Source: Bdellovibrionota bacterium
Lineage (GTDB): Bacteria; Bdellovibrionota_C; UBA2361; JAFLCA01
Length of the DNA: 64,000 nt
Direction: 5' to 3'
Assembly: GCA_030584005.1 (NCBI GenBank)
Contig: CP129486.1
Coordinates: forward strand, 435,556 to 499,555
Below, in pieces: positions 41,054 to 60,204 of the stretch; the stretch's first letter is position 1, and every line of letters starts with the position of its first letter. Below the pieces are notes generated by a model, which saw only the letters and a program-made list of their open reading frames with translations, had not been told where the DNA came from and ran no database searches. The position numbers and the translations under genes were made by a program.

Positions 41054-41200
41054 AGAAGGAGTAAAGGTGAATCAAGATCTCGACAGCCGAGAAGGAGAGT
41101 TGGTTATAGGTCGTGCACCTCGAATCCCAAACCAACAGCCCCGCCGAGACAAGTACAAGCACGAGTCCAAGAAAACCTCTCGTCCGCTTCGCAACTTTCG

Positions 41201-41854
41201 TCAGGTCAAATCCGCATATTTTTGCGTCACGCAAATACCTTGTACTGCTCTATCCCCCGCCAAGTCGGGAGAATGCGTCAGATCTGAGCCGAGAGCAGAA
41301 AGGAGCGCCGATGAAAGGTCAGTCGATGAGATGACCTCCTCGTCAATCGATACTCTGATAAGAGCCGGATGCAAAGTGGCTGGATTAAACGCTACGGACT
41401 GCGGTCCTGGCATTCTACCTTCAGGATTATTACGTAGGAATAAACGGCGTGCGAAACAAAGCCCGTCCGTGGTCACTCCAAACATGTCTGTCAGCCAGAG
41501 AGGTTGCTTTGCAATGGCAAGGTCAAGCGAGCGTGCAAGACACCTGCCTTGTCCCTGCAAAGTAGGAGAAGGCAGGCCCTGTAAGTGCGCATGTAGAGCT
41601 CGCACAGAAAGAACGACCAAAGCTTTCACAGCATTGGTCCAATGGAATGTGCCACATCCCGCATGCACCCCGGCTGTCTTTCCCCTCACACACTGGAGCG
41701 TGCCTACTAGTGGGTGCTGGAAGAGCGTGGAGGATAATTCCGGCTTTGCTCTGTCATACAAGCGGAGATCAAGTAGGGTCATAACATGATTCTGGTAATT
41801 ACCCACGCCATCTGGTGAGCTATGTTCATGGTCACTTTTTATGACTATACGCAA
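41201..41854 (-). CDS. possible hypothetical protein downstream of the XRE-like gene
   Basis: 217-aa ORF co-directional with operon; overlaps a competing plus-strand ORF; weak. Confidence 0.25.
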   Translation of the reverse strand: MRIVIKSDHEHSSPDGVGNYQNHVMTLLDLRLYDRAKPELSSTLFQHPLVGTLQCVRGKTAGVHAGCGTFHWTNAVKALVVLSVRALHAHLQGLPSPTLQGQGRCLARSLDLAIAKQPLWLTDMFGVTTDGLCFARRLFLRNNPEGRMPGPQSVAFNPATLHPALIRVSIDEEVISSTDLSSALLSALGSDLTHSPDLAGDRAVQGICVTQKYADLT

Positions 41855-41889
41855 GACGGGTCAACAAGAATCGCTGCTATGGTCATGCA

Positions 41890-42741
41890 TTACCTATAGT
41901 TGTTCGCCGCGCGCCTCAGCAAAGCATTGGCCTCGTGACCTCCCACTGAGGCATCATACATCAGATCAAACGCTCGATTGAGCCACGCAATGGCTTCTTG
42001 ATCCGTGCAATGCACTGCCCCTACTGCTGTTTCAAGCGTGGCTGACATGGAATCGAAAACACAGAAACTGTACATAAGCGGAACTGGCAAATTTGTGCCA
42101 CGAGGCAAGAGGCGAAATGCTTCAGGATTAGATTTTAAAATTGCTGCTAAGTGCGCCAGCTGCTCGCCCATTACCGTGCGCGAACCTACTACGCGATACA
42201 ACGCCTCTTCATCGATTATGCAGAGAATATCTTTTCGTGAGTTAGATTTGGAGGCTGCCCTTTTGAGCATTTCCGCACCGATTCGACTTCGTAACTTGCT
42301 TGCTTCTCGAGCATCTTTCTGGTCAACAGAGTGCAACATCATCATCTCATAGGCATAGCGTTCCGTTTGACAAAGCCCTACTAAAGCCAATGTTCCGACC
42401 TCTCTGTAGGTACTTGCTTGTTTTAGACGAGCCCAATATTCGACATGCAGGTCCTCTGCGTTCTTGCTTGAGCTTCGCCACGGGTCAAATTGAATTAAGA
42501 AGACTTTGCCTAGTTCCCGCAGTCTGACATGCTCATTGGAAGATAGGGCAAGAGCTTTGGAGAAAAGATCGATGTAGTCTAGATCTATCTTGATCTCGCC
42601 TCGTTCACGCTTGAGTATTCCGGATACACTGTAGCGTCCGCGCATTGCTCTGGAGAGCGTCGCGGGGCTCTCCATGCCCTTCTGATAGCGGATCGAACGC
42701 AGGCGGCGCCCGAGGCTGTCTGGTTTATCTAACTGGGGCAT
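41890..42741 (-). CDS. XRE-family HTH regulator with DUF5753-like C-terminal domain (Scr1-family-like)
   Basis: N-terminal LGRRLRSIRYQKGMESPATLS...RYSVSGILKRERGE HTH; C-terminal ...ALVGLCQTERYAY...ILCIIDEEALYRVVG...MGEQLAHL... block pattern. Confidence 0.6.
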   Translation of the reverse strand: MPQLDKPDSLGRRLRSIRYQKGMESPATLSRAMRGRYSVSGILKRERGEIKIDLDYIDLFSKALALSSNEHVRLRELGKVFLIQFDPWRSSSKNAEDLHVEYWARLKQASTYREVGTLALVGLCQTERYAYEMMMLHSVDQKDAREASKLRSRIGAEMLKRAASKSNSRKDILCIIDEEALYRVVGSRTVMGEQLAHLAAILKSNPEAFRLLPRGTNLPVPLMYSFCVFDSMSATLETAVGAVHCTDQEAIAWLNRAFDLMYDASVGGHEANALLRRAANNYR

Positions 42742-42753
42742 AAGGAAGTAAAT

Positions 42754-43359
42754 CTAGAACGACACCCGTAATGGAGCCTCGCGCATCATCTTTAAGTAAT
42801 CGCTCAACGGTACGGCAACTTTCATTAGCTCGTCACGTAGTCCAGTGAACTTCGACACCGTTCCTGGCGTATTATCGAACTCCATATTCTTTAGCTGGCT
42901 CCCATCGAAATTAATTTCGAGCACAGATGAAGCATCGAACAGGTAGAAGTCCCTCCCGCGGAGCTCTACAAACCGCGGGTGTCTGTCAATGTTAACAAGA
43001 TAAACTTTCTCACCTGCTGGGGCATTAAACAGAGTGTATGCCCACTCTATCTCGTAGCGGAGATACGGGGTTAAGACCTCTGGGATCAAATGCACCCGCA
43101 CCATTTCCTTACCAGCCGATACTGCGGCCTTCACTCTGTCATACCAGGCCGTCCAGCCCGAGTCTGTGAACGGTGGATTGATACCACCGTTCACATACTC
43201 GCGCAGGACACGGTCGTCGTCTACCACGGCATATGTATCAAGGGTCTCGACGCGGAAGGCCGAATGATTAAACTTCCAAAATATCTCCTGCTGCTCCGCA
43301 GGAGTGACAATGCGACGTTCGCACGGATCCACATGGTGACCTTGTTGGGTAGACGGCAT
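42754..43359 (-). CDS. hypothetical protein (201 aa), middle gene of three-gene operon
   Basis: 13-nt gap to XRE-like gene, 16-nt gap to upstream gene; no recognised motif. Confidence 0.5.
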   Translation of the reverse strand: MPSTQQGHHVDPCERRIVTPAEQQEIFWKFNHSAFRVETLDTYAVVDDDRVLREYVNGGINPPFTDSGWTAWYDRVKAAVSAGKEMVRVHLIPEVLTPYLRYEIEWAYTLFNAPAGEKVYLVNIDRHPRFVELRGRDFYLFDASSVLEINFDGSQLKNMEFDNTPGTVSKFTGLRDELMKVAVPLSDYLKMMREAPLRVSF

Positions 43360-43374
43360 AAGCTCTCTCTACTA

Positions 43375-43677
43375 TTAGACCTCAGGGGCGGCAAGTTTCA
43401 ATAGTTGCGGATCAATACGGACCGCAAATTCATCATCGTAAACTTTCACGAGCCCCGTAGCTTCCAAATCCTTTAAGTCAGAAGCCATAAGTCGCTTGCC
43501 CACTATTACTATAGACCCATCTTCGCACTTAAGGATTGATGGGCACGTTCCCTGTGGGCAGCACGCCTCCTTGCCGGTAACAAACTGACCCGGGAAGCTC
43601 TCCTTGGCAATCATAGTAAACTTGGTCGACATAGATCCTCCATAAACGCGCTTCTCAAACAAGAAAAGACGAAACAC
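43375..43677 (-). CDS. small Cys-containing hypothetical protein (100 aa; possibly starts at internal Met giving ~85 aa), weakly DUF397-like
   Basis: ...ACCPQGTCPSILKCEDGSIVIVGKRL... loosely resembles the Cys + DG-x-V-x-VRDSK core of DUF397. Confidence 0.4.
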   Translation of the reverse strand: MFRLFLFEKRVYGGSMSTKFTMIAKESFPGQFVTGKEACCPQGTCPSILKCEDGSIVIVGKRLMASDLKDLEATGLVKVYDDEFAVRIDPQLLKLAAPEV

Positions 43678-43933
43678 AGCTAAGCAAACCGCCGCTAGAA
43701 ACTAGACCGGCAAATCGCTGTAGTCAATAAAATTGACCACCCCATTTGAAAGGGTGGCAATCTGAATCTATTCGCAAAATTAGCCTGTTGGAAATGCCTC
43801 CTCCAGAACGAAGCGTTCAATGTCCTGCGCGGATAATTTCTGAATCCTGGTCCCACATCTAAATGTGGTGACAGCTGCTAGTCACTAGCTACAAACCCTC
43901 ATTGACTATGCGACTAGACTGTAAGAGGCCACC

Positions 43934-44207
43934 ATGACAAAAAAGCGCTGCTCCTCACGACAAAGGAGGCAGCATCAATTCTTCGAGTCAATCGCACAAA
44001 ACTGTATGACCTCATCAAGGGAGGGGTAATTCCAGGGGTGCGAATTGGAGCTGATTGGCGCATTCCAATTGAATGCATTGAGAGACTTTGCGCGGCAACG
44101 ATCCCCGACGCGTTTTTTCAACAGCGAGTCCCTCCGCGAAGAAAAGGTGGGCGGCCGAAACTAACCGAAAAGAAGGTGCGCGCCACAATCCCCGTGGCGT
44201 CCACATA
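43934..44207 (+). pseudogene. excisionase-family HTH (HTH_17-like) gene interrupted by -1 frameshift in an A6 run
   Basis: ATGACAAAAAAG...: with one extra A the frame reads MTKKALLLTTKEAASILRVNRTKLYDLIKGGVIPGVRIGADWRIPIECIERL... to stop at 44207. Confidence 0.6.
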
Positions 44208-44241
44208 GGACCCGCAATCTTGCAGACATTAGGAACTTTAT

Positions 44242-44867
44242 ATGACGATCGAAACTGCTCTCCTATGGGTCACCTACCTTGGTGTGGTCTGCCTTATCTT
44301 TACGACCTACGAACTCGGAGTGCTCCTTGGCTCTCGATTGTTCGGGGGAACGTGCACTGGTTGTGACTGTGGATTTGGGCCACCTATAGTGGATGGTGTG
44401 GTGGGAAGTATTCACCTACGACTTCGCATTCTCCCCATCCCTATTGGCTTTACAATTGCGATGCGAGAGAAGGTCGCCGGGCATTTAGTAATCAGAAGGC
44501 CTCTTATCGAGCAGTTAAGAAGGCACTATGGCCCCCAAGTCAGGGTCGACCATCACATCAGTCCACTGCAACCTGTGCCCCACGTATGCTCATACCTCTC
44601 CTTGGAACGGCTCTGCTTGTGCTTATGCTTGTGGCATCTCTCGGCGTCGTCGCCCCTTGGTTGATTGTCATTTTATCTGCAGCAATGGGACCCATGACGT
44701 GTTGCACGGCATCCCAATGTGCTCGCATGGTGTTCATGCTAAGTGGCGCATCCGTGATTGTAGCACTCTACAACCTCTTCCCAGTTAAAAGACTGAATGA
44801 TGGCGCACTGCTTATGGAACTCATTCGAACCCCGCGGCTTCAAACCCTATACTGGACCAATACATGA
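44242..44867 (+). pseudogene. possible site-2-protease (M50)-like membrane protein, frameshifted and with degenerate HExxH (YELGV)
   Basis: two overlapping ORFs in different frames; C-terminal LYNLFPVKRLNDGALL resembles the M50 NxxPxxxLDGG motif. Confidence 0.25.
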
Positions 44868-45198
44868 GACCTCGAACGTAGCCTTCAAATGAGCTCGGCA
44901 CGGGGGGCCTGTTTTATTGGATCAGGAGTTGAGCTACTTGTCCCAGCAGAACGACCGCTACGACACCTAGAATTATCTCACACTAATGTCCAATCTTGAG
45001 CCAGTTCGGCCCACTAACATTGTGGTCGTTACTCCGCAGCGGGAGCTGGCGGCGATCCGGGACGAGTGAGCGATAGAACGACTCCGACGCAGGCTAAGCA
45101 TAGGTAGACAGTTACAAACAGTGCTAGGGCTACCGCAATCGGGACAAAGGTGAAGAAGGGTCGTAGAGGGGCACCAACGCCTCCCCGGGCTTTAGTTC

Positions 45199-46406
45199 CG
45201 GCCGAGGGAGCGTATATGACGCCCACCCCCGGCCGGGTATCGAGACCTTTTGGCGGAACCTCCACTCGGCTTACGGAGGAGGGACTCTAGCGGTGCTAAG
45301 CGCCTTGGGCTTGCACTTGCAGCGCCGACGACTCTTCACGCAGAGGGCGACCATGCCGCAGTACAGAACGTGTGCGGCCTCTGGGACGGCAAGCGTCTCC
45401 ACCCGCACCGCTGCATTGGTTCCCCATGTAAAGACGGGGTGCTGACTCAGCAACTCCGGCGGTCCAAACGGACCGACGTCCGAAGCCCACCAGTCCTCAA
45501 GGCCAGAGCCCGACATGCGCGGGGCAAAGTACGGAATCACTCCCGGCATAATCTCCTGACCGTCGATTGACAGGGAGATCACATGCTGGGCGCCCGCTGT
45601 GGTGAGCCAGTTGTAGTCACGCACATCGATGGTGATCAGGTAGAGGTTGTGGTTGATGCCCGGCTCGTCGAGGTTGGTTGAAGGTGCCGATAACATCCTG
45701 CCATCCAGGGTTGACGATGTCCTGAAGTATCGAACTCCTGGAAGTAGTTGGGGTTCTGTGGATCCCAACAAAACGGGTCATCGATGTAGGAGGTGACATC
45801 AGGGTGGAACCCCGCCCGAATGGTGAAGTCACCCTCCTCAGCCGGATGGTTCGGCGTGTAGTCACCGTAGTCGAGGGACATGACGAAGGAGATCTGACTC
45901 ACCTTCTGGCCGTTGCCCGGGATGGTGACGCCAAGACTCGTCTTGCCGCTCGGCTCGTAGCTCGCAAAGATGCGGTGGTACGGGATTTCACCCGTAAACT
46001 GGTTGAGGTTGTCCTTGATGATGTCAGCGTGGGCGGACTGTCCCATGATGACAGTGAGGATGAGGGTCCCCACGAGGCCCATGACGCTGTTGATGGTACG
46101 CATTCCTTCGCTCCTGTGAATTGAAACCGCGATGCTGCTCTTCCTTGTCATCCGGGTACGCCCCGGTTGATCTACTGGCAGTGAGTCCCGCGCTTAACAT
46201 AAGCCCACGACTCACTGCCACAAAAAACAGCGTGAAACCTTAAGAACTCTTCAGTTCCTTCGCACGACTTCTTTGGAATTCGTGCATGCGGCTTCTACCA
46301 ATTCCCTGGCGACCTGATAATGAACCTTTCAAGGCCACAAGGCTACCACCACGCTCTCCTTTAGTCACGCACACTTACGACCGATACAAAGAGCGGAGGC
46401 TCCGAG
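45199..46406. repeat. 1.2-kb direct repeat, copy B (carries decayed PEP-CTERM gene)
   Basis: see copy A. Confidence 0.85.
45271..46151 (-). pseudogene. PEP-CTERM protein gene, second copy disrupted by several 1-nt indels
   Basis: split into ORFs 45636..46151 and 45271..45771; indels clustered near 45690-45735 and 45350-45375 relative to copy A. Confidence 0.65.
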
Positions 46407-46653
46407 CAAATGGCCCGAAAAGGCATCGTTTCAAGAAGTTATGCTGCCGCTCGAGATAGTGTTTCATCAAGACGCTGGAATTTGGTGTATCTGGCCAGCG
46501 CAATGGCCTTTCTATCACTCCTGTTACTTGTAGGGGTTTCCGGGATTCCTAGTATCTCTGCTGCACTCCAGAGCTACTGGCTGGCACCCAAGGGGGTGTA
46601 CATAGACCTTCGTTCCCGACGCCCCAATAGGAAGAGTTGATATTGAGGTTACA

Positions 46654-47292
46654 TTGAACCGCGACCTTTCATTCAAGGTGCGGGAACGGACAGTCAAGGT
46701 TTTCTCTGACCCGTCCAAGATGTCACACACCTCCGCAAAATTGATTCCGCTCAAAACTGGTACCACATGCCACGGCGAGGATGCGGTAGCGATCGATGTG
46801 GTAGTAAAGAATGCAGTCACGTGGAATTTCAACGAAGCGAATAGTATTAGCAAGAATGGGAGTCCAGCTGCACAGATTACCGTCCCCTCACGCTTCACAC
46901 TGATTCCGATTGAGTCGTCTCCTGCAAATGTGCGTCAACTTGATAAGGGAGTGAGCGAGGAAGTCGAGATTCACTACACCGTGGAGGGAATATTTCGGGA
47001 ACGTGGCACACTACTTCCCTTAATAACACCGCCAAGCATTGCAGCTGACGCATTCAGTGTCTCGTTTGAAAGACCAGAAGTACTGGGCAGCGATCTAGAG
47101 GTTGCACTATGTTGGGGCAAGGATGCGGCGCTCTCTGAGCTTCCACTCAAATACAAGACAACAACCCTGGATGGAAATGTAATTACCACGTGGGAAAGCG
47201 ACATGATCCAGGGAGGAAGCATGCCGAGCCCTGCACTTCCCACACATACCACCCTGGCCCTTGCACTTAAGCCGATTAAGAACGACAGATAA
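46654..47292 (+). CDS. hypothetical protein (212 aa); may be fused by a frameshift to upstream TM-containing ORF 46410..46640
   Basis: frame 1 open from 46606 overlapping end of frame-3 ORF; no family recognised. Confidence 0.35.
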   Translation: MNRDLSFKVRERTVKVFSDPSKMSHTSAKLIPLKTGTTCHGEDAVAIDVVVKNAVTWNFNEANSISKNGSPAAQITVPSRFTLIPIESSPANVRQLDKGVSEEVEIHYTVEGIFRERGTLLPLITPPSIAADAFSVSFERPEVLGSDLEVALCWGKDAALSELPLKYKTTTLDGNVITTWESDMIQGGSMPSPALPTHTTLALALKPIKNDR

Positions 47293-47391
47293 TCACGCCG
47301 CTTGTACCGCGTCCCACTCATTGCGTCGATCCTAGAAAGTGCTCTCCCGACGCTAGCAGGGTCCAAACCCAGCACCGCAGCTACTGCCTCT

Positions 47392-48298
47392 TTATTCGAT
47401 TGAAGTTGAAGCCCTCCTCCAACCCCCCATTACCGCATTCTCAAATTCAATCGACGCGCCTTGAGTCCTCTCCCAAAAACTCGAAAAAGCTTCGCGCCAT
47501 AGCAACATTGTGCGTTCGAATGAACGAAGCTCCATTGAGATAAGCGCTGAGGCCTGCGAGCTGCGAAATGGATCTCGTTCCCCGAGAGCACCGCCTAGGA
47601 ATCCCTTTCTCGATGCACCGATCATAATAGGCTGTGATAGGCCAGCGGCTCTAAAGCGTGGCAGATCTCGCAGCAGCTCAAAGGAATAGCGTGGATCGTT
47701 GCTTACGAAGCGGCCCATACCCGGATCAACAATAATGCGAGCCGGAGAGACCCCTCTTCGCACCGCCTGTTCCACCCGCTCACAGAGAAAATCCGCGATA
47801 TGGCCCACCACGTCAATCGTACTCACGCGTCTCCGGGGTAACATGCGGCAAAGGAGCATCCTTGGCGTACATCAATACTAGGTAGGCATCGAATTCCGCT
47901 ACGACCTCGGCGAGCTGTGGGCTCGGCTCTTAGAGCCGACACATCATTATGATTCGGCATCCTGCGGCCAGGGCGAACCTCGCAACTGTAGACTTGTAGG
48001 TGTCGATGGAGCAGCAACTAATCCTGGGACCCAGAAGCTCTAACAGCGGTCTTAAGCGTTGCAATTCCTCAGAGGCTGAGAGCGGGGTTGATCCGGGACT
48101 GGTTGCTTCTGCCCCGATATCTAGGAGTGCAGCACCAGAGCGCAGCAGTGTATCGCAATATTCAACGGAGGTGCGCAGGTCTACGAGCCTACCTCCATCA
48201 CTGAATGAATCGGGAGTCACATTCACTACACCGACTAACACCGGGCACTTAGGGCTTAGCCCTAAGCCGGAATAGTCAAAGTCGAGCTGTGTGTTCAT
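47392..48298 (-). pseudogene. folP: dihydropteroate synthase with at least three frameshifts
   Basis: N-terminal part VVNVTPDSFSDGG...; motifs NDVSAL, LAEVVAEFDAYLVLMYAKDAPLP, and IIVDPGMGF each in a different frame within ~150 nt. Confidence 0.7.
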
Positions 48299-49203
48299 GG
48301 AATTTTTATTGCCATCTTCCCACGGGTGTGGCCGGCCTTACTTCGTCGCAGTGCCTCCGCGGCCTCATCCGCCGTGAGAGCAAAGCTGGCACTCACATGG
48401 GTGCGGAGTGCGCCGCCCTCGATCAGCTTGGTCAACTCCCTCAGCTGTGATTGCTCGGGGCGTACAAAAACATACTCAAATACGACCCTAGAAGGTACTT
48501 TATCGAAGGCGTCATTATGAACGATGCTCACCAAACGGCCGCCATCTTAAGCACATCGGCGCTTCGCAGGAAGATATCGCCGCCTACGGTGTCAAAAGCG
48601 AGATCTATCCCTTGTGGGAACTTCGTGCGCACTATTTCTCGAAAATCAACTAAGGAGTAGTCAATTACCTCGTCCGCACCGAGACGGCGAATAAACTCAT
48701 GGTTGCGCAGCAAGCCGGTCGAGATCACATGCGCTCCGGTGTACTTGGCAAGCTGCACGGCAAAGCCACCGACGCCGCCTGCCCCGGCATGGATGAGGAC
48801 TGTCTGCCCGGATTTGAGTGAGCCGGCCTCAAAAGGGATTGCCACGCGGTTAGTGCGGCGAGGGGCACCGTCGCAGCCTCTTCAAACGTCATATTGCGCG
48901 GCATGCGGGCACAGAAAGTCTCCGGCACAACCACATACTCGGCGTAGGTCCCCCACTTGACGACGGGCTTGCGGCAGTATGCATACACTTCATCGCCGAT
49001 CGACCATTGGGTAACACCACCGCCGGTGGACTCAACGATTCCTGCGGCATCCCAACTAGAATGATTGGAAACTCATGCGGAAGTCTATCTCGAAGCAGTC
49101 CTTCCCGGATCTTCCAGTCAACGGGGTTGACGCCGGCAGCCTTGACCCTGAGAAGTATCTCTCCCACAGCGGGCTGAGGCTTCTCGATCTCGACAAGCTT
49201 CAT
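48295..49203 (-). pseudogene. quinone oxidoreductase / zinc-type ADH superfamily gene fragmented into four frames
   Basis: fragments VKAAGVNPVDWKIREGL / YAEYVVVPE...EEAATVPLAALTAWQSL / GQTVLIHAGAGGVGGFAVQLAK / ...HTRGKMAI in successive frames. Confidence 0.65.
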
Positions 49204-49362
49204 GCGATCGCTTTGGCCAACTCCTCATAGTGATTGCTTTCATGATAACCTGCCATTTCCCCACAGGGTGAAACATATAGGAGAAGACCCTCGAGAGTAA
49301 ACGCTCAGTCGAGCCCTGACGATTTGAAACATCGAGACAGCCGGGTTATCCTGCACCCATCC

Positions 49363-49424
<62 letters not shown>

Positions 49425-49438
<14 letters not shown>

Positions 49439-50161
49439 ACTGAGCAAGGCGAAGTTGGCGGACAATAGGCAGGATTCGAACCAAGAAACAGGGCGAATCC
49501 GCGAGCGAGTGTCGCTCGCGAGCAATCTGCCGGGTACGCCAACTGAGCAAGGCGAAGTTGGCGGACAATAGGCAGGATTCGAACCAAGAAACAGGGCGAA
49601 TCCGCGAGCGAGTGTCGCTCGCGAGCAATCTGCCGGGTACGCCAACTGAGCAAGGCGAAGTTGGCGGACAGTAGGCAGGATTCGAACCAAGAAACAGGGC
49701 GAATCCGCGAGCGAGTGTCGCTCGCGAGCAATCTGCCGGGTACGCCAACTGAGCAAGGCGAAGTTGGCGGACAATAGGCAGGATTCGAACCAAGAAACAG
49801 GGCGAATCCGCGAGCGAGTGTCGCTCGCGAGCAATCTGCCGGGTACGCCAACTGAGCAAGGCGAAGTTGGCGGACAATAGGCAGGATTCGAACCAAGAAA
49901 CAGGGCGAATCCGCGAGCGAGTGCCGCTCGCGAGCAATCTGCCGGGTACGCCAACTGAGCAAGGCGAAGTTGGGCGGACAATAGGCAGGATTCGAACCAA
50001 GAAACAGGGCGAATCCGCGAGCGAGTGTCGCTCGCGAGCAATCTGCCGGGTACCGCCAACTGAGCAAGGCGAAGTTGGCGGACAATAGGCAGGATTCGAA
50101 CCAAGAAACAGGGCGAATCCGCGAGCGAGTGCCGCTCGCGAGCAATCTGCCGGGTACGCCA
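49425..50161. repeat. ~7 x 103-bp tandem repeat beginning inside the tRNA-Arg 3-prime end
   Basis: unit GGGTACGCCAACTGAGCAAGGCGAAGTTGGCGGACAATAGGCAGGATTCGAACCAAGAAACAGGGCGAATCCGCGAGCGAGTGTCGCTCGCGAGCAATCTGCC; copies differ by a few SNPs/1-nt indels. Confidence 0.85.
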
Positions 50162-50331
50162 GTGGAAAGAGGCAGGCGCTTCTCCTTAAAAAGTTGCGGT
50201 CGAGGTTATCCTGCGCGAGTCACACCACTGTATATACACGCGAGAACAGCGCATCTCCTCCCTCTACCTTGACTCGACCATTGGCTTGAAGATGCCGCAG
50301 GATAGAGAAGATGGCAGGTGTTGCGTCCTCT

Positions 50332-51842
50332 CTATCCATCGATCGAGCGAGCTGGTTCGACGCTGTAGCTCCCTGAATGCTCCCGTAAAAAGGCAAGCAC
50401 AGCGGACTGGAGCTGTAACACCTCATTAGCCGCCTTCTTTCCGGCCTCGACCCCGGGCTGGTGGTAGGCGTTTACGTTTATGAGCGAAGCGTAAAGTCCG
50501 ACCGCTCTTTCAAACAGGGCGATCAACATTCCGAGGTTGAACTCGGAAACCTCTGAAATGGTAATCGTGATGCTCTCGCGACTCTTCTCGAACAACGCCC
50601 GGCGAGTCCCCTGTAGGAACCCGCTCAGGTAATCGCCGCTTGTTACGCCGGGGTCCACCTCAAAGGCATGGGCTTGGAACTCACCAGAGAGGGCTCCGCC
50701 GCTAGTCCGTGCGAACGATCTTTGAGGACCTCGATGAAAACGGCGAAGAAATTGTTTATTCCGTCGCGGAGCTGCTGCACATACGCGTGTTGATCGGTTG
50801 ATCCCTTATTTCCATACACGGAGAGTCCCTGATCGACTCGTGCTCCATCCCTGTCCAGTTCCTTCCCTAGACTCTCCATCACAAGCTGCTGCAGATAGCG
50901 GCTAAAAAGTTCGATCCTATCGTTATAGGGGAGCACGACCATGGACTTTTGTCCCTTTCCTCCTACCCGCATAGAACCACATCAGGGCAAGGGAGGCCGC
51001 CGGATTTCGAGTGGCGTCAGGATTTCGTGTCAGGACATCCATGTGGCGGGCTCCGGCTAACAAGGCATCAAGGTCTGCCCCATGGAGAGCAGCGGGGAAG
51101 AAGTCCCACAGCACTCAGCTCGCTCGTCCTTCCTCCAACCCAGTCCCCACATTGGGAAGGTAGCAAGCCACTTCTGCGTGGTTGCTGTCCGATACAGTTC
51201 ACTGCCGTCACTGGTCACTGCTACAAAATGCTTTGAGAAATCGAGACCCAAGGAGTGCAAAGCCTGCGCCTGCAATGAACTGGCCATTACGAGTTTCCTT
51301 GGTCCCACCAGACTTAGAGATCACCACGCAAAGAGTACGAGCGAGATCGGGGATGCTTCGTAGAGTCATCTCCATCCATCTGGATCGGTATTGTCAAAGA
51401 AATAGAGTCGCAGTCCCTTACTTCCCAGCGCCCGATACACGAATTGGGGTCCCAGAGCCGAACCTCCAATGCCGATGATGAGCGCTGACTCAAAAGATGT
51501 CCATCTGAGCTCTTTATCTCGCCAGCCAGCACCGCTGCGGTGAAGCGCTTTACCGATTCAATCGTAGAATCAATCTGATTCCGATCTCCCGCGATGGTGC
51601 CCGCTGGCTATCGCGAAGCCAATAATGCCCAATCATGCGGCCCTCATCGGGATTGGAGACTGCGCCGCTCTCTAGCGCCGCCATTTCCTTCAAGGCCTTT
51701 TCAATGCGTGGTCTCATTCGACTCAAAAACGCTGAGTCAAAGTGCATTCGGGAGATGTCTAGAGAGAACTCCGTGCGCTCATCATGGAAGTAGTAATTCT
51801 TTAGGGCGTTGCCAGAGCTTTGGTTCGTCCATCGCGATACAT
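50332..51842 (-). pseudogene. pgi: glucose-6-phosphate isomerase fragmented into at least six frames
   Basis: fragments ...SNPDEGRMIGHYWLR..., ...[34 protein letters not shown]..., ...[16 protein letters not shown]..., ...[17 protein letters not shown]... match PGI blocks. Confidence 0.65.
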
Positions 51843-51992
51843 TCCAAATTAAAGTAGTTGCAGAATGACCCTATCCTTGACCGAGTAATGCCATCGGGCA
51901 AGGGCTTGAAACCCTGAGCAAAGTTCACAAGGTGGGGACTACTACTAAGAATTCGATTAGTTATGATAAGGCTTTGAGATGAACAGCGATTA

Positions 51993-52640
51993 GTGCTATT
52001 GAAGCCCTGTCAACCGTCCGGGGCACATGAATCTATGATCAGAGAAAATCTTCTTTTCTTTAAAGAGTTTCTCCAAGAGTTCGAGAACACGGGAACCTGT
52101 TTCCCGACATCGCGTCAAGCAGCGCGAGCCCTTGCCCAGCCGGTGCTTGAATCATGCGCCCCGAAGAAGATCTTAGAACTGGGGCCCGGAACCGGATCGG
52201 TCACTGTTGAGATACTGCGGGCGATGCGAGAAGGGGATGAACTGGCAATTTGCGAGATCAATCCCCGATTTATGGAGGCGCTAAAGGAACGTCTACACGA
52301 TAACCCCGACTATATTCGACACCGGGCGAGGATTAGGTTCTTCCAGTGCGCGGCCCAGGAACTTCCCGAAAATCAGCATTATGATGTGATTGTATGCGCC
52401 CTTCCATTTTTAAATTTTACCCCGGAAGTGGTCGCGGAGATCTTTCAAAAGATTGAGCGCCTTAGTCACCCGGACAGCGTCATGACCTACTATGAATACA
52501 TTGGATTGCGAAAACTAGGAATGACCGTGGCAGCGCCGCCTAGAAAGCAACGAATTAAGGAAATCAACAACTTCTACCGGAATCTGGCGTCGCGATGGCG
52601 TATTTCCCGTCGTAAGCTGGTTCAACATGCTTCCCATTAA
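51993..52640 (+). CDS. class I SAM-dependent methyltransferase (possibly phospholipid N-methyltransferase-like)
   Basis: ILELGPGTGSVT motif I. Confidence 0.6.
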   Translation: MLLKPCQPSGAHESMIRENLLFFKEFLQEFENTGTCFPTSRQAARALAQPVLESCAPKKILELGPGTGSVTVEILRAMREGDELAICEINPRFMEALKERLHDNPDYIRHRARIRFFQCAAQELPENQHYDVIVCALPFLNFTPEVVAEIFQKIERLSHPDSVMTYYEYIGLRKLGMTVAAPPRKQRIKEINNFYRNLASRWRISRRKLVQHASH

Positions 52641-52729
52641 CATCTATCGGCTCCAGATCGCCGCATAGAAATCTAACTTTTAGTTACTTAAACTTTGTTG
52701 ACTAAGGATCGCCCTGCCTGCATCATCAT

Positions 52730-54173
52730 GTGCGGGATTTACTGACTTCCCTGCACCATATGCCCCAACTCTCCACCAGTGGTCTTTCGACAACATTCTT
52801 ACCCAGCTCCGCGCAACCCCCCGTCGCGCCCCTACCAGTACGCATCCCTACTCGCGATGAGATCCGAGGATCAGCAACACTACCAGAGCGCGCCGCAGAG
52901 CATCTAGTCCTAGGATTTCGAAATATTATTAGTGCACTGGAAGGTCGCACCGAGCCAATCATCTCAGTGTACGGCAGTGCGCGATTGAACAGCGGACATC
53001 CCGCCTATGAAGCCGCGCGTGAACTCGCTCGCCAGATGGCTATCGGCGGCTGGTCGGTACTTACTGGAGCAGGACCCGGGATCATGGAAGCGGCGAATCG
53101 GGGCGCCTACGAAGCCCGACAATCAAAAGCCGGTCTTTGGGGGTAAAGGTCGATCTCCCCCGTGAGGGCCAGGTCAACCCGTATGTGAACGAGATGTATG
53201 CATACGTATATGATTTTTTTGTCCGGAAGGTGCTGCTCATTAAACCATGCAGCGCAATCGCACTCTGCACAGGCGGATACGGAACCCTCGATGAAGGGTT
53301 CGAGGTGCTCAATCTGATCTCCAAGGGGAGTGTCAAGCCCATCACATTTAAGGACGGCTCAGTAGGTCCAATGCCGGTGGTAGGAGTGGGCAAGGAATTT
53401 TGGCAGCCACTCAAGATGCGTTTGGCGAGCATTTCAAATCGCAGGGTGGCTCGGGTGCGCCGGATAATATCGATCTCCTGCAGATCGCATCAAGCGCAGA
53501 GGAGGCTGCAGCGCAGCTCCTCAAGGCCGGTATCTCACCCAAGCGTGTGCAGGTTGACGACGAGATGGCCTTCAAGGTGTGGGGAGACCTTGAAGCCGGG
53601 TTCAAAACTCTTGAGTCAGTGGGACCTCGCGTCGCCATATACGGAAGCAGCAAACATGCCCCCAATGACCCCTTTTGCAAACTTGCCGGCCGACTAGGGC
53701 ACCTTCTGGGTGAGGAGAAGATTCCCGTAGTGACTTGCGGAGCTTCCGCTCTCACCAATTCGGTTAACGCGGCAGCAAAGTTCGCGGGAGGGCGATCTGT
53801 AGGCATCAGCAGTCAACACGAACCCTCTCCTAATGGACACGTCACTGACTCAATTCGAACCACTTACAATTGCACGGCTAAGGTGTTGGCCACTCGAGGC
53901 GCCACCACATCGATATTCTTCCCCGGTGGATTCCAGACAATGGATGCTGTTTTTGAGGTGCTCACCCTGCATCAAACTGGCAAATCAGACGAAACTCCAA
54001 CTGTATTCGTTGGCAGGCCCTGGCATGTTGTCAAAGCCGGGCTTAAGACCATGCTCGATGCGGGGACAATCGAGAAGCGTGACATCGATAGGATCATGGT
54101 CGTTGAAAAGGCCGAGCACGCATTTGATATCGCTAGGGCTTCAGTCCAGAAAGCGCGTCAGCAGCTCGCATAA
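52730..54173 (+). pseudogene. two-domain LOG-family (TIGR00730-like) gene with two frameshifts
   Basis: first LOG domain split across ORFs 52730..53146, 53137..53697 (GAGPGIMEAAN; PVVGVGKEFWQPL); second degenerate LOG-like domain in 53400..54173 (PGGFQTMDAVFE). Confidence 0.55.
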
Positions 54174-54330
54174 TCGAATGATATTGCCAATCCACGCTCG
54201 TGGGGGAAAAGGCTAGAAGCTATTTTCTAAATAGCTTACAGCTTGCGACACCGAGCCGGGGCACTTTAGGCCCCCCGACGAAGCTTGGAGCGCTTTTTAA
54301 ATGGGCAGGCGGCCATTTAAAAAATAAATT

Positions 54331-55122
54331 CTAGTGGGTTGAACTATCAACAGTTCGTGCGCCCTCATTGGGAGGAATCGCGGTGACACTCCTGCCCTTT
54401 CGCCTCATAACCCAGATGCAGGGACCACTCGCTACGTAACCAGCGGCGAGGCACAGCAGGCCCAGTTGGTGATTGTACCAGATCAAAGCAATCAGAGCCC
54501 CCATCGCCACAAACACGGGCAGCGGGAGGTGTTGGATCTGGATCTTCTTAATGCTTACAAACTCAACCTTCGACACCATCAAGAAGGCAAGCAGCAGCAT
54601 CAGCACGGATGCAACAGTAAGAAAAATCATATCCATCTTAAGGTCCGGCGCGTAGTGTACCGTTGCCGCCACGAGCCCCGCTGCAGCCGGCGTAGGGAGC
54701 CCTTGAAATGTCTTTAAATTCTCGGCTGATAAGTTGAAGCGGGCCAACCGAGTTGCTGCTCCCAGCGCAAACATGAAGCTCACGAACACTCCCCACTCAT
54801 CCGCCAAGGCTCGGAATCCCCAGTGATACACCACCATTGCAGGAGCAACGCCAAAGCTCACAAAATCTGCAAACGAGTCAAACTCTCCACCAAACTTCGA
54901 AGTGGCGTTGAAGCGCCTCGCTACCCGACCATCGAGGCCATCAAAAAGAATTGCTAACCCTATGGCGAGAACCGCCTTCTCGTGACGGGCAGTGGCTGCA
55001 TATATGATCGCCAGAAAGCCGCAAAACATGCTGGCAAGTGTGACAAGGTTGGGGAGAATGTATCGGCGGCGATACAAGCGCTCCCGCAGATCGATGGGAT
55101 TTAATTTTCTCGACATGACCAT
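54331..55122 (-). CDS. pssA: CDP-diacylglycerol--serine O-phosphatidyltransferase (CDP-alcohol phosphatidyltransferase family)
   Basis: DGLDGRVAR...G...D...D motif; multiple TM segments. Confidence 0.8.
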   Translation of the reverse strand: MVMSRKLNPIDLRERLYRRRYILPNLVTLASMFCGFLAIIYAATARHEKAVLAIGLAILFDGLDGRVARRFNATSKFGGEFDSFADFVSFGVAPAMVVYHWGFRALADEWGVFVSFMFALGAATRLARFNLSAENLKTFQGLPTPAAAGLVAATVHYAPDLKMDMIFLTVASVLMLLLAFLMVSKVEFVSIKKIQIQHLPLPVFVAMGALIALIWYNHQLGLLCLAAGYVASGPCIWVMRRKGRSVTAIPPNEGARTVDSSTH

Positions 55123-55447
55123 AGTGCACTGAACGGCTTCTTAGATTCTTTCTAAGGATATACTGAAGAAGTGCCCTCCAAGACCCTTATTTAGACTCTC
55201 CACACTACGCCCGCGCGCGGCGTAGCACGGGCTTACACTTAGGTTTCAGTCCTAGCGCACGCCATCCGGGCGCGCGCTAGGGATGCGCTGAACTTGTTCA
55301 GCGTATCCCTAAGACCAGATCCGGAAATAGGCCGTAGCCGATTTCCGGATGCACTCTAGCAGTTACCACCGGGACAACTGCCCCCAATGTTCCCCTATCT
55401 TACCAGACCCGACTCTAAGCACCAACAGAGCGGCCACCCGAGCTCTA

Positions 55448-57379
55448 TCAGGCGTCCGGGCCTCTCTCCTTGAGTACGCTCTCTACCGCCATAATCTCCC
55501 CCCCGGTGCTTTGAATCTTCTCAAGTAACTTGACGTATACTCGCACCCGGCTGGGCGAGAGGCCCGGGCTTAAACCCTCCAAGATCCATAACGCTGCTGC
55601 CGGATCTGCTACAGTGAGCAAGGACCTAAACAGAGTTATCCTCCTTCTTTCGGCCAGAAAGAGCCTCTGAAAAGGAAATCCCGCGCGATACTCACCAAAA
55701 CCGATGTCAATGAAATACCTGTACAGCTCCGCCTCGGCATCTGTTGCAAACACGCTTTCAGGAAGATCCCGACAACGGCGGCTCCATAGTTCGCCTAAGC
55801 GAATTCCCTGCACGATGAGCTCCGCCGCCTCGGGATCATAGCGCTGCCCCCGACACTCCGGACAAAGCATGGCGGTAACATCGGCGACAGCAAGGGTCCT
55901 GCCAGCTCCCGCACAGTATCGGCACAAATGACTGCCATGCGGGAAAGCGATCGTATCGGCAGTTATCCCTAGAACACGCGCTTCAATGGTGCTTGAGAAA
56001 TGTGGGGCAATCAGGTCATGAAAGCCAGAGGCGACTAAAAGCGGTTGTGCCCCGCTCATTCTGCGCTTCTGTTCACATAACTGCCCGATATCCAGCACTC
56101 GTCTTGATGAGGTCACCGCTTCCCGCTGATTGGGCTTGGTCAAGAATACAACTGGCCCTTTATCTGTGCGCTCTCTCTGTTTGACGGCCGAGAGAGCATC
56201 GAGGTGTTCCGCACAGCGCGCACTGGGACCTCCAAGAACATGGAGCCTCGCCCCTTTTGAGCCCAACAACTGCACAGCACGGTTGAGGGCGGGCCACCTA
56301 TCCTTTTCCACATAGCTCCAGAGATCCTCTACGATTACCCGCACACCTGCCAACGCGAATCGGGCCATGGTCGAACCATCAAGGAGCATCAGCTGTGTCA
56401 ACCCAAGATCCTCAAGTTTTGTGCTGAGCGAGAGTTCCCCCAACCCAAAATCACACAACCCGGAAAGGGTGCTCCGCAAATCCCAGGCGCCCTGTGGGGT
56501 GGATTTCTCTAACAGGGCAAGCAATGAAGACACTGGCTGCTCCAAGAGGAGCTTGAGGCCCATACCGCCCAACCGATACTCAAACTGGGAGGAGCAAAGA
56601 TCACGCGGTCTAAGGGATTCAATCGGAACACGCACAGCGCAGTTCGAGCAAGAACATTGGAAGGGAAAGAAGCCAATGTCATCGATGACCTTGCGATCGC
56701 GAGATGCCATCACCAGTCTGCCGCCGAGCTTCAATGCTGCCAATGTATGTGCTACTCGCTCCTCCTCGCCGGGGGCAAGTGGTAGTGTCACGCTTGTGAT
56801 CACTGCGTCTAGAGCTTCGCGATCCGACGCCTCATCCTTCCGGAGCAGCCTGTTCTGCGACACATAGTACTCGACCGCAGAAAGCTCAGGCACGAGTTCT
56901 CGCTTGACTACAAACAGCAGCACTCCCTGCGCTTGTAATTCTCTGACTACCCTGTGCCATGGGACACATTCCGCCGGCGCATTGCACACAGTGCATGTCA
57001 ATAGGCCCTGCGTAGTCACTAGCGTTCCAAGCGCACTGCCCAAAGAGAGATAGCCCTCCAAGGTATGCGTGCCCACTACTGTGCGGGCACTCCAGGACAA
57101 GACAGGTGTTTCATCCGGGAACTGGAGGATCCCGTCTGCGAATTCGTGCAGTCCCGGTTCAAGCTCTCCTGAAGTGGACTCAAGCCGTTGACTTACATTA
57201 GTGCCGGGATCGAATCGAAATCGATCCATGAGGAGCATACCCCCTTGCGCTTCAAATTCGGGAGAAGTTACGTTCATGTCATCAGAACATTGGCTCACAG
57301 CCACGCATGGCTGCATCCTTAAACGATTGCACGGCACGCCCGCTCTGGATGGGGGAAGAATAAGGCGATGAACACACAC
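55448..57379 (-). CDS. UvrA-like protein lacking recognisable Walker A motifs (degenerate excinuclease ABC subunit A paralogue)
   Basis: CRYCAGAG-x17-CPECRGQRY zinc finger typical of UvrA; DFGLGELSLSTKLEDL signature-region-like; no G-x4-GK[ST] anywhere in 643 aa. Confidence 0.45.
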   Translation of the reverse strand: MCVHRLILPPSRAGVPCNRLRMQPCVAVSQCSDDMNVTSPEFEAQGGMLLMDRFRFDPGTNVSQRLESTSGELEPGLHEFADGILQFPDETPVLSWSARTVVGTHTLEGYLSLGSALGTLVTTQGLLTCTVCNAPAECVPWHRVVRELQAQGVLLFVVKRELVPELSAVEYYVSQNRLLRKDEASDREALDAVITSVTLPLAPGEEERVAHTLAALKLGGRLVMASRDRKVIDDIGFFPFQCSCSNCAVRVPIESLRPRDLCSSQFEYRLGGMGLKLLLEQPVSSLLALLEKSTPQGAWDLRSTLSGLCDFGLGELSLSTKLEDLGLTQLMLLDGSTMARFALAGVRVIVEDLWSYVEKDRWPALNRAVQLLGSKGARLHVLGGPSARCAEHLDALSAVKQRERTDKGPVVFLTKPNQREAVTSSRRVLDIGQLCEQKRRMSGAQPLLVASGFHDLIAPHFSSTIEARVLGITADTIAFPHGSHLCRYCAGAGRTLAVADVTAMLCPECRGQRYDPEAAELIVQGIRLGELWSRRCRDLPESVFATDAEAELYRYFIDIGFGEYRAGFPFQRLFLAERRRITLFRSLLTVADPAAALWILEGLSPGLSPSRVRVYVKLLEKIQSTGGEIMAVESVLKERGPDA

Positions 57380-57894
57380 GCATTTACATTACTATCTGCT
57401 CTCCCTCGATCACACTGAGTGTTTCCCCTAGCTGCAATATCGAATGAGACCAATCCCATAGCAGGAAAAAGTATAGGTAAATGTTGAAAAATTCCAGCAG
57501 GCAGTGCAACTAAGGCGCAGGATGAACTATGCTCTTTGACGCTGTTAGAGTTAACAGTCGTCCCTCGAGATCTCCTCCGTCCCTGGGAACGAAGAGCCCC
57601 GTAGTTGAAATTCGCATTGAAAGTACGGGCAGTTGCTGCGAAAAGCGCTCCTATAGCATTAGGTGATCCCGACATGACATGGTTGTGACCAAGGCATTCT
57701 AGCCCTGGAATAGATTTTGCTTTCGACAGACCATGGTCCTGTATGTACAATCTCCTGTCTGAAGGGGGGAGGCTAACTACCGCGGCTCATTCAAGGTGAT
57801 ATGTCCTTATCTCGATTCTGCGGCGGTTGATGGTAATTTGTCTGATATACTGCAGCAAAAGTGCTCGACACAATTGCTCTGAACAGATGTAGAT

Positions 57895-58581
57895 ATGGAA
57901 CAACAAACACCACCTTCTGTTCGCGTTGTACTAAGCGACGACCATGCGATCGTTCGCCACGCGATACGCACTATTATTGAAGCATCGCCTCGTTTCCAAG
58001 TTGTTGGAGAAGCAGATGATGCTTACTCTACTATGGAATTGCTTGCATCTGCGCAGCCCGATGTCCTCATTCTGGATCTCGGGCTTCCTGGGAAAAGCGG
58101 CTTGGAGGTGCTTTACGAAATTAAGGCACGAAAGTTGCCTACAAAGCTAATCATCCTGAGCATGTTTGATGACGAGCTTAAGGTAAGGCAGGCGCTTGCA
58201 GCGGGTGCACATGCATACTTAGTGAAGGACTCCAGCCCTGCTGATCTGCTGGCTGCGCTCGATGCGGTCCTGCGAGGAAACCGTTTTGTGGCGAGGCGCT
58301 TCCAACATCTTTTGGATCGTTTTAAAGAGGATGCTTCGACTAATGGGCGCTCTCCGGATCCTGGGCTTGCGCTCGATCCCCTGGGAATACTGAGTGATCG
58401 CGAACGCGAGATCTTTTATCTTTTGGCGGACGGGCTGCCCAATCGTGTTATCGCCAAGAAGCTGTTCATAAGTCCCCGCACGGTAGAAACGCACCGTGCT
58501 CGCATTCTGAAGAAATTGAACTTTTCTTCAACTGCCGAGCTTGTACGATACGCCATTCGAAATAATCTGTTGAGTGTGTAA
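57895..58581 (+). CDS. two-component response regulator, NarL/FixJ (LuxR-type HTH) family
   Basis: RVVLSDDHAIVR...DVLILDLGLPG receiver; C-terminal LSDREREIFYLLADGLPNRVIAKKLFISPRTVETHR. Confidence 0.9.
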   Translation: MEQQTPPSVRVVLSDDHAIVRHAIRTIIEASPRFQVVGEADDAYSTMELLASAQPDVLILDLGLPGKSGLEVLYEIKARKLPTKLIILSMFDDELKVRQALAAGAHAYLVKDSSPADLLAALDAVLRGNRFVARRFQHLLDRFKEDASTNGRSPDPGLALDPLGILSDREREIFYLLADGLPNRVIAKKLFISPRTVETHRARILKKLNFSSTAELVRYAIRNNLLSV

Positions 58582-60189: not shown

Positions 60190-60204
60190 AAAAGCCAACT
60201 ATAA

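What the first reader, a model, noticed from the sequence alone, without database searches (positions are those of the whole stretch)
43934..54173. Ten-kilobase tract of multiply frameshifted genes, including central-metabolism genes folP and pgi
Within this tract at least seven genes carry two or more frame disruptions each: the excisionase-like gene, an M50-like gene, PEP-CTERM copy B, folP (3+ shifts within 150 nt), a quinone oxidoreductase (3+), pgi (5+) and a two-domain LOG-like gene (2). Flanking regions (0-40 kb and 54-64 kb) have clean long ORFs. This indicates either a localised low-quality assembly stretch or genuine regional gene decay around the tRNA-linked repeat array and island. 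Loss of folP with an intact folK at 38960 would be biologically meaningful.
Basis: seen in the sequence. Interest (0 to 1): 0.6.

Follow-up and report, generated by a model that had tools for sequence, protein, structure and literature searches.

The report
Sequencing-error tract, not gene decay
The ten-kilobase run of "broken" genes, including folP and pgi, is almost certainly an uncorrected sequencing or assembly error patch in a published metagenome-assembled genome, because independent assemblies of the same bacterium carry every comparable gene intact.

Summary
Window 43,945-54,278 has no long ORFs, and folP, a quinone oxidoreductase, pgi, a two-domain LOG gene and others are split across frames, while both flanks are clean. 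The cause is not decay.

The window comes from a GenBank MAG ("Bdellovibrionota bacterium", one 2.28-Mb contig, tags QY326_02080-02140). I recovered 14 independent short-read (Logan) contigs of the same or sister strains, from seven sequencing runs.

- **Indels:** the contigs agree against the window at 34 indel events (32 of one base, two of two bases) in 8.7 kb of covered tract. There are none in 17 kb of covered flank.
- **Genes intact elsewhere:** FolP (288 aa), QOR (328), Pgi (536), MTase (211), LOG2 (471), an unknown 293-aa protein and the excisionase-like protein (91).
- **No excess divergence:** substitution divergence is the same in tract and flank.
- **Selection still visible:** with indel columns removed there are no in-frame stops and dN/dS is 0.05-0.27.
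- **Indels without substitutions:** between 46,005 and 50,577 there are 16 private indels and no private substitutions.

Frameshifts without substitutions, private to one assembly and mostly in 2-4-nt runs, fit an unpolished long-read consensus patch. Low interest, except as a warning about database pollution.

The parts
43945..54278 (.). Error tract: at least 39 small indels (34 private events against short-read contigs, 3 more in the left part of copy B, at least 1 in the M50-like gene, 1 in the tandem array), about 1 per 250 bp
43934..44208 (+). HTH_17 excisionase-like gene. It is 91 aa and intact in L003/L004; the window lacks one G at 43945 (GCGGC to GCGC).
44242..44867 (+). M50-like gene (YELGV in place of HExxH, also in the short-read contig). 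It has at least one frame switch between 44467 and about 44600. There is no close reference beyond 44467.
   Evidence: Peptidase_M50 22.2 bits, below cut-off
45198..46406 (.). Repeat R_B, the second copy of a 1.2-kb segment (R_A = 39846-41053). It carries the PEP-CTERM-like gene copy B (about 45271-46151, minus strand) with 5 private one-base indels.
46410..47292 (+). Unknown 293-aa gene, intact in L095. In the window it is cut to 212 aa (WKZ57478.1) by an extra G at 46607.
47430..48298 (-). folP (dihydropteroate synthase). It is 288 aa and intact in L094/L095/L096. The window has 6 one-base indels (47946, 47919, 47815, 47569, 47475, 47441).
48295..49276 (-). Zn-dependent quinone oxidoreductase-like gene. 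It is 328 aa and intact in L094-L096. The window lacks one base at each of 49226, 49218, 49055, 48830 and 48546.
49362..49437 (+). tRNA-Arg (CCG), intact
49428..50161 (.). Tandem array of 7.1 copies of a 103-bp unit, starting in the 3' end of the tRNA. One copy has an extra G at 50053 relative to the other copies and to L091/L092.
50220..51832 (-). pgi (glucose-6-phosphate isomerase). It is 536 aa and intact in L090-L093. The window has 10 one-base indels in the CDS.
52035..52668 (+). SAM-dependent methyltransferase. It is 211 aa in L090-L092. A 2-bp deletion at 52616 in the window replaces the C-terminus (WKZ57484.1, 201 aa).
52760..54173 (+). Two-domain LOG/SLOG gene. It is 471 aa in L090/L091. 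One-base deletions at 53133 and 53414 split it in the window, and GenBank annotates two of the resulting pieces (WKZ57485.1 128 aa, WKZ57486.1 257 aa).
54325..64000 (.). Clean right flank, 100% identical to short-read contig L001, whose end coincides with the end of the tract
36818..43944 (.). Clean left flank: no private indel or substitution against L003, L005, L006 and L007

Best explanation
The tract is a consensus-error patch in the deposited assembly, not biology. The window belongs to a closed 2.28-Mb metagenome-assembled genome. Over about 10.3 kb (43,945-54,278) its consensus carries roughly 0.4% small insertion and deletion errors, mostly plus or minus one base in runs of 2-4 identical bases. 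These fragment every gene that could be checked against a close reference; only the tRNA is untouched. The organism's real genes here are intact and under purifying selection.

Inferred, not shown: the assembly is accurate wherever short reads corrected it. This stretch sits between a duplicated 1.2-kb gene, a mobile-looking insert, a tRNA-linked tandem array and strain-variable sequence. I infer it was bridged or gap-filled from a few long reads, possibly of a slightly different co-occurring strain, and escaped polishing.
For: 1. **Source.** Fragment ORFs of the window are exact GenBank CDSs of 'MAG: Bdellovibrionota bacterium', contig 2,283,970 bp, QY326_02080-02140.

2. **Independent assemblies.** Fourteen Logan short-read contigs from seven runs cover the region. 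Flank contigs L001, L002 and L006 are 100% identical to the window.

3. **Distribution of indels.** At 34 events every covering contig (1-4 contigs, up to 4 runs) agrees against the window. All 34 lie in 43945-54278, and there are none in 17 kb of covered flank.

4. **Intact genes elsewhere.** HTH_17 91 aa, unknown 293 aa, FolP 288, QOR 328, Pgi 536, MTase 211 and LOG2 471 are all intact, with full-length Pfam matches for FolP, QOR, Pgi and LOG2.

5. **No excess substitutions.** Against the sister strain L090, identity is 96.7% in the tract and 96.6% in the flank, with 18 versus 3 indel events.

6. **No decay signature.** With indel columns removed there are zero in-frame stops in any tract gene. 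dN/dS values:
   - LOG2 0.077
   - MTase 0.052
   - Pgi 0.18
   - QOR 0.07 (vs L094; 0 vs L095, a single synonymous change)
   - FolP 0.09-0.27
   These are no higher than the flank genes, 0.03-0.36.

7. **Indels without substitutions.** From 46005 to 50577 there are 16 private indels and 0 private substitutions. QOR differs from L095 by 1 substitution and 5 indels.

8. **Repairability.** Repairing single bases restores full-length proteins. My blind repairs of QOR and of four folP sites matched the sites later seen in the references.

9. **Error type.** There are 19 deletions and 15 insertions, about 29 of 34 in short homopolymers (my reading of the contexts). They occur in coding, intergenic and repeat sequence alike.

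10. **Boundaries.** Short-read contigs break at or near the tract edges (44467, 54325) and at repeat edges, which fits a region that short reads could not span.
Against: I had no reads, coverage or assembly metadata, so the cause of the errors (platform, bridging, failed polishing) is inference.

The references come from other assemblies. A minor strain that really carries these frameshifts cannot be formally excluded.

The first indel (43945) lies 520 bp inside a region that short reads assemble cleanly, so simple absence of short reads does not explain it.

In the pgi segment the window also has 11 private substitutions. In the CDS, 5 of 7 changed codons are synonymous. That suggests the patch derives from a slightly different real haplotype rather than from the run-SRR24881069 strain plus errors alone.

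No close reference covers 44468-45197, and only paralogous or sister-strain sequence (R_A, L005, L094) covers 45198-45471.
Confidence: 0.93

Rival explanations
1. Genuine regional pseudogenisation: a strain in which a 10-kb neighbourhood next to a mobile insert and a tRNA-linked array is decaying, losing folP, pgi and others.
For: Frameshifts are really present in the deposited sequence, and GenBank annotates the fragments as separate CDSs. The tract adjoins an insert with excisionase-like and DUF5753/DUF6879 genes and a duplicated gene. The window has private, mostly synonymous substitutions in pgi, so it may represent a distinct strain.
Against: There is no nonsense codon, no large deletion, no rise in dN/dS and no extra substitutions. 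Between 46005 and 50577 there are 16 private indels and 0 private substitutions. From general knowledge, neutral decay in bacteria yields many more substitutions than indels. None of the 34 indels is shared with any of the other runs. Events fall mostly in 2-4-nt runs rather than in long runs, and hit intergenic and repeat DNA equally. Essential single-copy functions (folate synthesis next to an intact folK, glycolysis) would be lost together.
Confidence: 0.03
2. Strain-chimeric patch. The tract comes from a co-occurring minor haplotype that was stitched between contigs of the dominant strain. Its substitutions are real and its indels are errors. This refines the best explanation rather than replacing it.
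For: The flanks are 100% identical to run SRR24881069 contigs. The pgi contig of that same run (L093) differs from the window by 13 substitutions as well as 13 indels. Eleven of those substitutions are private to the window, they are biased to synonymous sites, and they are confined to 50578-52011. Short-read contigs are fragmented here (2-4 kb) although a 23-kb contig begins at 54325.
Against: Some private substitutions look like homopolymer-boundary miscalls (CCTT to CTTT, GGGG to GGGA). Three cluster at a GAATTC site, so they could be basecalling errors too. The synonymous excess rests on only 7 codons.
Confidence: 0.4
3. The genes are expressed despite the shifts, by programmed frameshifting, transcriptional slippage or editing.
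For: None beyond the presence of frameshifts in otherwise conserved genes.
Against: Up to 10 shifts per gene occur in both directions, at sites with no common motif, and also in intergenic DNA and in the tandem array. Sister strains encode the same proteins in one frame.
Confidence: 0.005

Closest known systems
Gene-fragmenting indel errors in long-read (Nanopore or PacBio CLR) assemblies
   Same: Small, mostly homopolymer-associated indels split genes into adjacent fragments that each match part of one family. The genes are restored by single-base repair against close relatives. [quoted passage not shown]
   Different: Here the errors are confined to one 10.3-kb patch of an otherwise base-perfect sequence. 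That points to a locally unpolished or bridged segment rather than a globally noisy assembly. The sequencing platform was not verified.
Long-read bridges or gap fills in hybrid or manually closed MAGs
   Same: The patch edges lie close to where independent short-read contigs end (44467, 54325). The interior contains a 1.2-kb duplicate, a 103-bp tandem array and strain-variable stretches that break short-read graphs.
   Different: The assembly method of this MAG is unknown to me. The first error lies 520 bp inside a short-read contig.
Regional or genome-wide pseudogene decay (for example Mycobacterium leprae, or recently host-restricted symbionts such as Sodalis)
   Same: Clusters of frameshifted housekeeping genes.
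   Different: Real decay comes with nonsense codons, larger deletions, raised dN/dS and lesions shared among relatives. None of these is seen here.

Membership tests
Assembly/consensus indel-error tract | The lesions are private to one assembly and absent from independent assemblies of the same or sister strains | tested here: met
   At 34 of 34 events, all covering short-read contigs (up to 4 runs) disagree with the window
Assembly/consensus indel-error tract | The lesions are almost only 1-bp indels, in both directions, mostly in short homopolymers, and irrespective of coding status | tested here: met
   32 one-base and 2 two-base events; 19 deletions and 15 insertions; they occur in CDS, intergenic and repeat DNA
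Assembly/consensus indel-error tract | No accompanying excess of substitutions | tested here: met
   96.7% identity in the tract against 96.6% in the flank, versus L090; 0 private substitutions against 16 private indels in 46005-50577
Assembly/consensus indel-error tract | Reads of the source sample contradict the consensus at the indel sites | not testable with these tools
   No read data were available. Contigs of run SRR24881069, which are 100% identical to the flanks, serve as a proxy.
Genuine pseudogene decay | Relaxed selection: dN/dS approaching 1 and in-frame stop codons | tested here: not met
   dN/dS 0.05-0.27 and zero stops after removing indel columns
Genuine pseudogene decay | At least some lesions shared with related strains | tested here: not met
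   None of the 34 events is shared
Genuine pseudogene decay | A second intact copy or a bypass elsewhere in the genome makes the loss tolerable | not testable with these tools
   Only the 64-kb window is available. No second copy lies within it.
Dihydropteroate synthase (Pfam PF00809 Pterin_bind) for the repaired folP | Full-length match to the family profile above its cut-off | tested here: met
   L095 FolP scores 191.8 bits over profile 2-244/244. The window fragments match profile 2-97 and 138-223.
Phosphoglucose isomerase (PF00342) for the repaired pgi | Full-length match to the family profile above its cut-off | tested here: met
   L090 Pgi scores 195.2 bits over profile 30-467/486. It is 58-66% identical to annotated glucose-6-phosphate isomerases.
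Peptidase M50 for the 'M50-like' gene | Profile match above the cut-off and an HExxH motif | tested here: not met
   The joined frames give 22.2 bits, below the 27.2 cut-off. The motif reads YELGV, also in short-read contig L003.

The most novel reading that the evidence does not exclude
The frameshifts are real in this one strain. That would mean a very recent burst of plus/minus-1 indels confined to 10 kb (for example error-prone synthesis during repair or recombination at the insert/tRNA-array junction) that inactivated folP, pgi and their neighbours before any substitutions accumulated.
Probability: 0.03. Interest if true: 0.6.

Novelty: not a real feature. Interest (0 to 1): 0.08.

Why it matters
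Biologically it removes a false lead. This uncultured Bdellovibrionota lineage has not lost folate synthesis or phosphoglucose isomerase. folK and folP lie in one conserved neighbourhood: lpxB, folK, PEP-CTERM-like gene, unknown gene, folP, QOR, tRNA-Arg, tandem array, pgi, MTase, LOG2, pssA.

Practically, the deposited record carries at least eight truncated CDSs (WKZ57475.1 to WKZ57486.1). Several of them already serve as representatives of 90%-identity protein clusters. Metabolic reconstructions, pseudogene counts and protein databases therefore inherit the error.

The case also shows a cheap test that needs no reads. Compare the ratio of private indels to private substitutions, and dN/dS, against independent assemblies.

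Tried and rejected
1. **Chimeric queries in the search for homologous proteins.** They returned only proteins of at least about 55% of the query length. Their failure to find near-identical FolP, QOR or LOG was therefore a tool artefact, not evidence of absence; I first misread it that way. The chimera that contained Pgi worked because Pgi was long enough.

2. **Genome-contig scan with the FolP N-terminus.** The best hit was 57% identical (a Gemmataceae MAG), so it gave no close relative and no synteny.

3. **The search of protein representatives with the FolP fragment.** The best hit was 55% identical, so it gave no close representative.

4. **E. coli Pgi as a frame guide.** It was too distant, at 28% identity.

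5. **Exact look-ups of the window's 212-aa and 190-aa unknown ORF and of my repaired proteins.** None was on record. The repairs of FolP and QOR were incomplete because more indels lay near the gene ends.

6. **The route that worked.** An exact look-up of the window's annotated fragments in the listing of cluster members gave the intact cluster mates. The look-up of encoding contigs then returned their contigs.

7. **Literature search for the run or locus-tag identifiers.** It found nothing relevant.

8. **Island-specific loss.** I considered that the tract was absent from other populations, then rejected it. The same gene order occurs in runs SRR16693997 and SRR10807626 (right part, L090/L091) and in SRR16693997, SRR34646263 and SRR10807626 (left part, L094-L096). 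DRR779145 (L092) carries MTase-pgi, and SRR24881069 (L093) carries intact pgi.
Full report
**1. The observation**

A stop-to-stop ORF map of the window shows long ORFs (200-960 aa) in 0-28.9 kb, 37.7-43.4 kb and 54.3-64 kb. Between 43.9 and 54.2 kb there are only short, overlapping ORFs. The other ORF-poor stretch, 28.9-36.9 kb, is a 5S-23S-16S rRNA operon.

In the tract, Pfam places parts of single families in different frames:
- Pterin_bind profile 2-97 (47933-48337) and 138-223 (47395-47871)
- ADH_N and ADH_zinc_N
- PGI
- two Lysine_decarbox/SLOG units

Hand-chaining the frames of pgi needs nine or more switches.

**2. Where the window comes from**

Exact look-ups show that the fragment ORFs are deposited GenBank proteins of "MAG: Bdellovibrionota bacterium". 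The contig is 2,283,970 bp and the locus tags are QY326_02080 to QY326_02140:

| GenBank protein | Window fragment |
|---|---|
| WKZ57475.1 | M50-like, 140 aa |
| WKZ57477.1 | PEP-CTERM-like copy B, 171 aa |
| WKZ57478.1 | unknown, 212 aa |
| WKZ57480.1 | dihydropteroate synthase, 122 aa |
| WKZ57482.1 | zinc-binding dehydrogenase, 105 aa |
| WKZ57484.1 | methyltransferase, 201 aa |
| WKZ57485.1 and WKZ57486.1 | LOG, 128 and 257 aa |

A single closed 2.28-Mb MAG contig suggests long-read assembly. That is inference; I did not see the method.

**3. Independent sequence of the same organism**

Exact-protein look-ups in Logan assemblies of public runs gave 14 contigs from seven runs.

Flanks:
- L001 (SRR24881069) equals window 54325-64000 at 100%.
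- L002 equals 56844-59399 at 100%.
- L006 equals 36818-39840 at 100%.
- L005 and L007 are 99.8-99.96% identical with no gaps.
- L003 and L004 equal 41024-44467 and 42586-44103, with a single difference: the window lacks one G at 43945. That breaks a 91-aa HTH_17 gene which is intact in both contigs.

Tract:
- L090 and L091 (SRR16693997, SRR10807626) cover 50.1-61.9 kb.
- L092 (DRR779145) covers 50102-52733.
- L093 (SRR24881069) covers 50132-52150.
- L094, L095 and L096 (SRR16693997, SRR34646263, SRR10807626) cover 46729-49410, 45472-49394 and 47390-49407.

In these contigs the genes are intact: QOR 328 aa, FolP 288 aa, unknown 293 aa, Pgi 536 aa, MTase 211 aa and LOG2 471 aa. FolP, QOR, Pgi and LOG2 give full-length Pfam matches.

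**4. What differs**

I placed every contig on the window and asked where all covering contigs agree with each other against the window. This gave 34 indel events between 43945 and 54278. Thirty-two are one base and two are two bases; 19 are deletions and 15 insertions. About 29 of 34 change the length of a 1-5-nt run (my reading of the contexts). In the 17,000 covered flank bases there are none.

The few indels in the flanks separate the sister strain (L090/L091/L094) from both the window and the same-strain contigs, so they are real strain differences.

Further events not counted among the 34:
- Three more private indels lie in the left part of PEP-CTERM-like copy B (45204-45208, 45355, 45378), judged against copy A, L005 and L094.
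- At least one lies in the M50-like gene.
- One lies in a copy of the tandem array (50053).

Counts per CDS (plus the three copy-B sites above): HTH_17 1, copy B 5, unknown 1, FolP 6, QOR 5, Pgi 10, MTase 1 (2 bp), LOG2 2.

**5. Error or evolution**

Four results point the same way.

- **Equal substitution divergence.** Against the 3%-diverged sister strain L090, identity is 96.6% in the flank (211 substitutions, 3 indel events in 6.5 kb) and 96.7% in the tract (147 substitutions, 18 indel events in 5.0 kb).
- **No decay signature.** With indel columns removed, no tract gene has an in-frame stop, and dN/dS is low: LOG2 0.077 (54 synonymous, 14 non-synonymous), MTase 0.052, Pgi 0.18, QOR 0.07, FolP 0.09-0.27. 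Flank genes range from 0.03 to 0.36.
- **Indels without substitutions.** From 46005 to 50577 the window has 16 private indels and no private substitution. QOR differs from L095 by one synonymous substitution and five indels. The unknown gene differs by no substitution and one indel. From general knowledge, neutral decay produces several-fold more substitutions than indels, plus stops and larger deletions.
- **No lesion shared.** None of the 34 events is shared with any other run.

In addition, single-base repairs that I made blind restored open frames at the very sites the references later showed. Together these findings mean that the frameshifts did not arise under evolution in a living lineage. 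They are consensus errors.

**6. Why here (inference)**

The patch lies in sequence that short reads assemble poorly.
- The 1.2-kb repeat R_A (39846-41053) and R_B (45198-46406) flanks a 4.1-kb insert. Short-read contigs end within about 30 bases of these repeat edges (L006 at 39840, L003 from 41024, L005 at 41053).
- A 103-bp tandem array follows the tRNA.
- The strains differ locally. L093 stops at 52150, next to a cluster of variants.
- L003 ends at 44467 and the 23-kb contig L001 starts at 54325, close to the patch edges.

The error density of about 0.4% is typical of an unpolished long-read consensus rather than of raw reads (my knowledge). The likeliest history is a long-read bridge or gap closure that was never corrected by short reads.

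One complication remains. In 50578-52011 the window has 11 private substitutions, and in the pgi CDS 5 of 7 changed codons are synonymous. Some look like run-boundary miscalls, and three sit at a GAATTC site. Their restriction to one segment and their synonymous bias suggest instead that the bridging reads came from a slightly different co-occurring haplotype. This refines the conclusion and does not change it.

**7. What is really there**

The sister strain L094 gives the ancestral order: lpxB, folK, PEP-CTERM-like gene, unknown gene, folP, QOR. L090 continues it on the far side of the tRNA and array: pgi, MTase, LOG2, pssA.

The window's strain additionally has R_A, the 4.1-kb insert X and R_B. 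X carries DUF5753, DUF6879, HTH_17 and the M50-like gene. The R-to-X junction is confirmed in short reads (L003). The X-to-R_B junction is not covered by any reference.

**8. Comparison with known cases and verdict**

This matches the known problem of gene-fragmenting indels in long-read assemblies (PMC12007338). It fails every tested criterion of genuine pseudogene decay. It is not a real genomic feature. Its only importance is as a correction to the record and a caution for databases. Confidence in the artefact explanation is 0.93. The residual 0.03 goes to real strain-specific frameshifts, which read mapping would decide.

Noticed in passing
window 29679-34500 (-), ORFs 30310-30951 and 31737-32261 (-): The 23S rRNA gene spans 4.8 kb instead of about 2.9 kb. 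Rfam finds a group I intron (30988-31364). Two ORFs inside the gene are LAGLIDADG homing endonucleases (LAGLIDADG_2 at 158 bits, LAGLIDADG_1 at 92 bits), so there are probably two introns. No tRNA lies in the 848-bp 16S-23S spacer.
   Followed up: partly
window 49362-50161: tRNA-Arg(CCG) is followed by 7.1 tandem copies of a 103-bp unit (98% alike) that begins within the last 10 nt of the tRNA. The unit contains GGATTCGAACC, a T-arm-like sequence on the opposite strand. It folds strongly as RNA (-41.7 kcal/mol, z = -4.9). It has no Rfam match. The array is also present at the contig ends of L090-L093, so it is real and conserved.
   Followed up: partly
window 39846-41053, 41054-45197, 45198-46406: A 1.2-kb direct repeat carries a PEP-CTERM-like gene (VPEP plus hydrophobic plus basic tail; no Pfam hit). 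It flanks a 4.1-kb segment with DUF5753, DUF6879, HTH_17 excisionase-like and M50-like genes and no recombinase. The sister strain L094 has one copy and no insert. The copies differ by an 11-substitution patch in 39 bp (40576-40614 versus 45929-45967), and the B-type patch is the one shared with L094 and L095.
   Followed up: partly
window 10760-11946 and 23605-24791: An inverted pair of 1,187-bp repeats (99.2% identical, no gaps), each encoding a 291-aa rve-family transposase (HTH_21, rve, rve_3). They bracket about 11.7 kb, a composite-transposon-like layout.
   Followed up: no
GenBank proteins WKZ57486.1, WKZ57484.1, WKZ57482.1, WKZ57477.1, WKZ57475.1 (window 44242-54173): Truncated CDSs produced by the error patch are representatives of their 90%-identity clusters in the large protein collection. 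In two of these clusters (LOG, methyltransferase) an intact Logan protein of 471 or 211 aa is filed under the shorter artefact; the other three are singletons.
   Followed up: yes
window 50680-50685: Three window-private substitutions within 6 bp turn a GAATTC site, present in four other assemblies, into GAGTTC. This could be a basecalling error at a methylated site or a real allele.
   Followed up: no
window 44305-44320: The M50-like gene has YELGV where M50 proteases have HExxH. The same sequence is in short-read contig L003, so the catalytic motif is really absent.
   Followed up: partly
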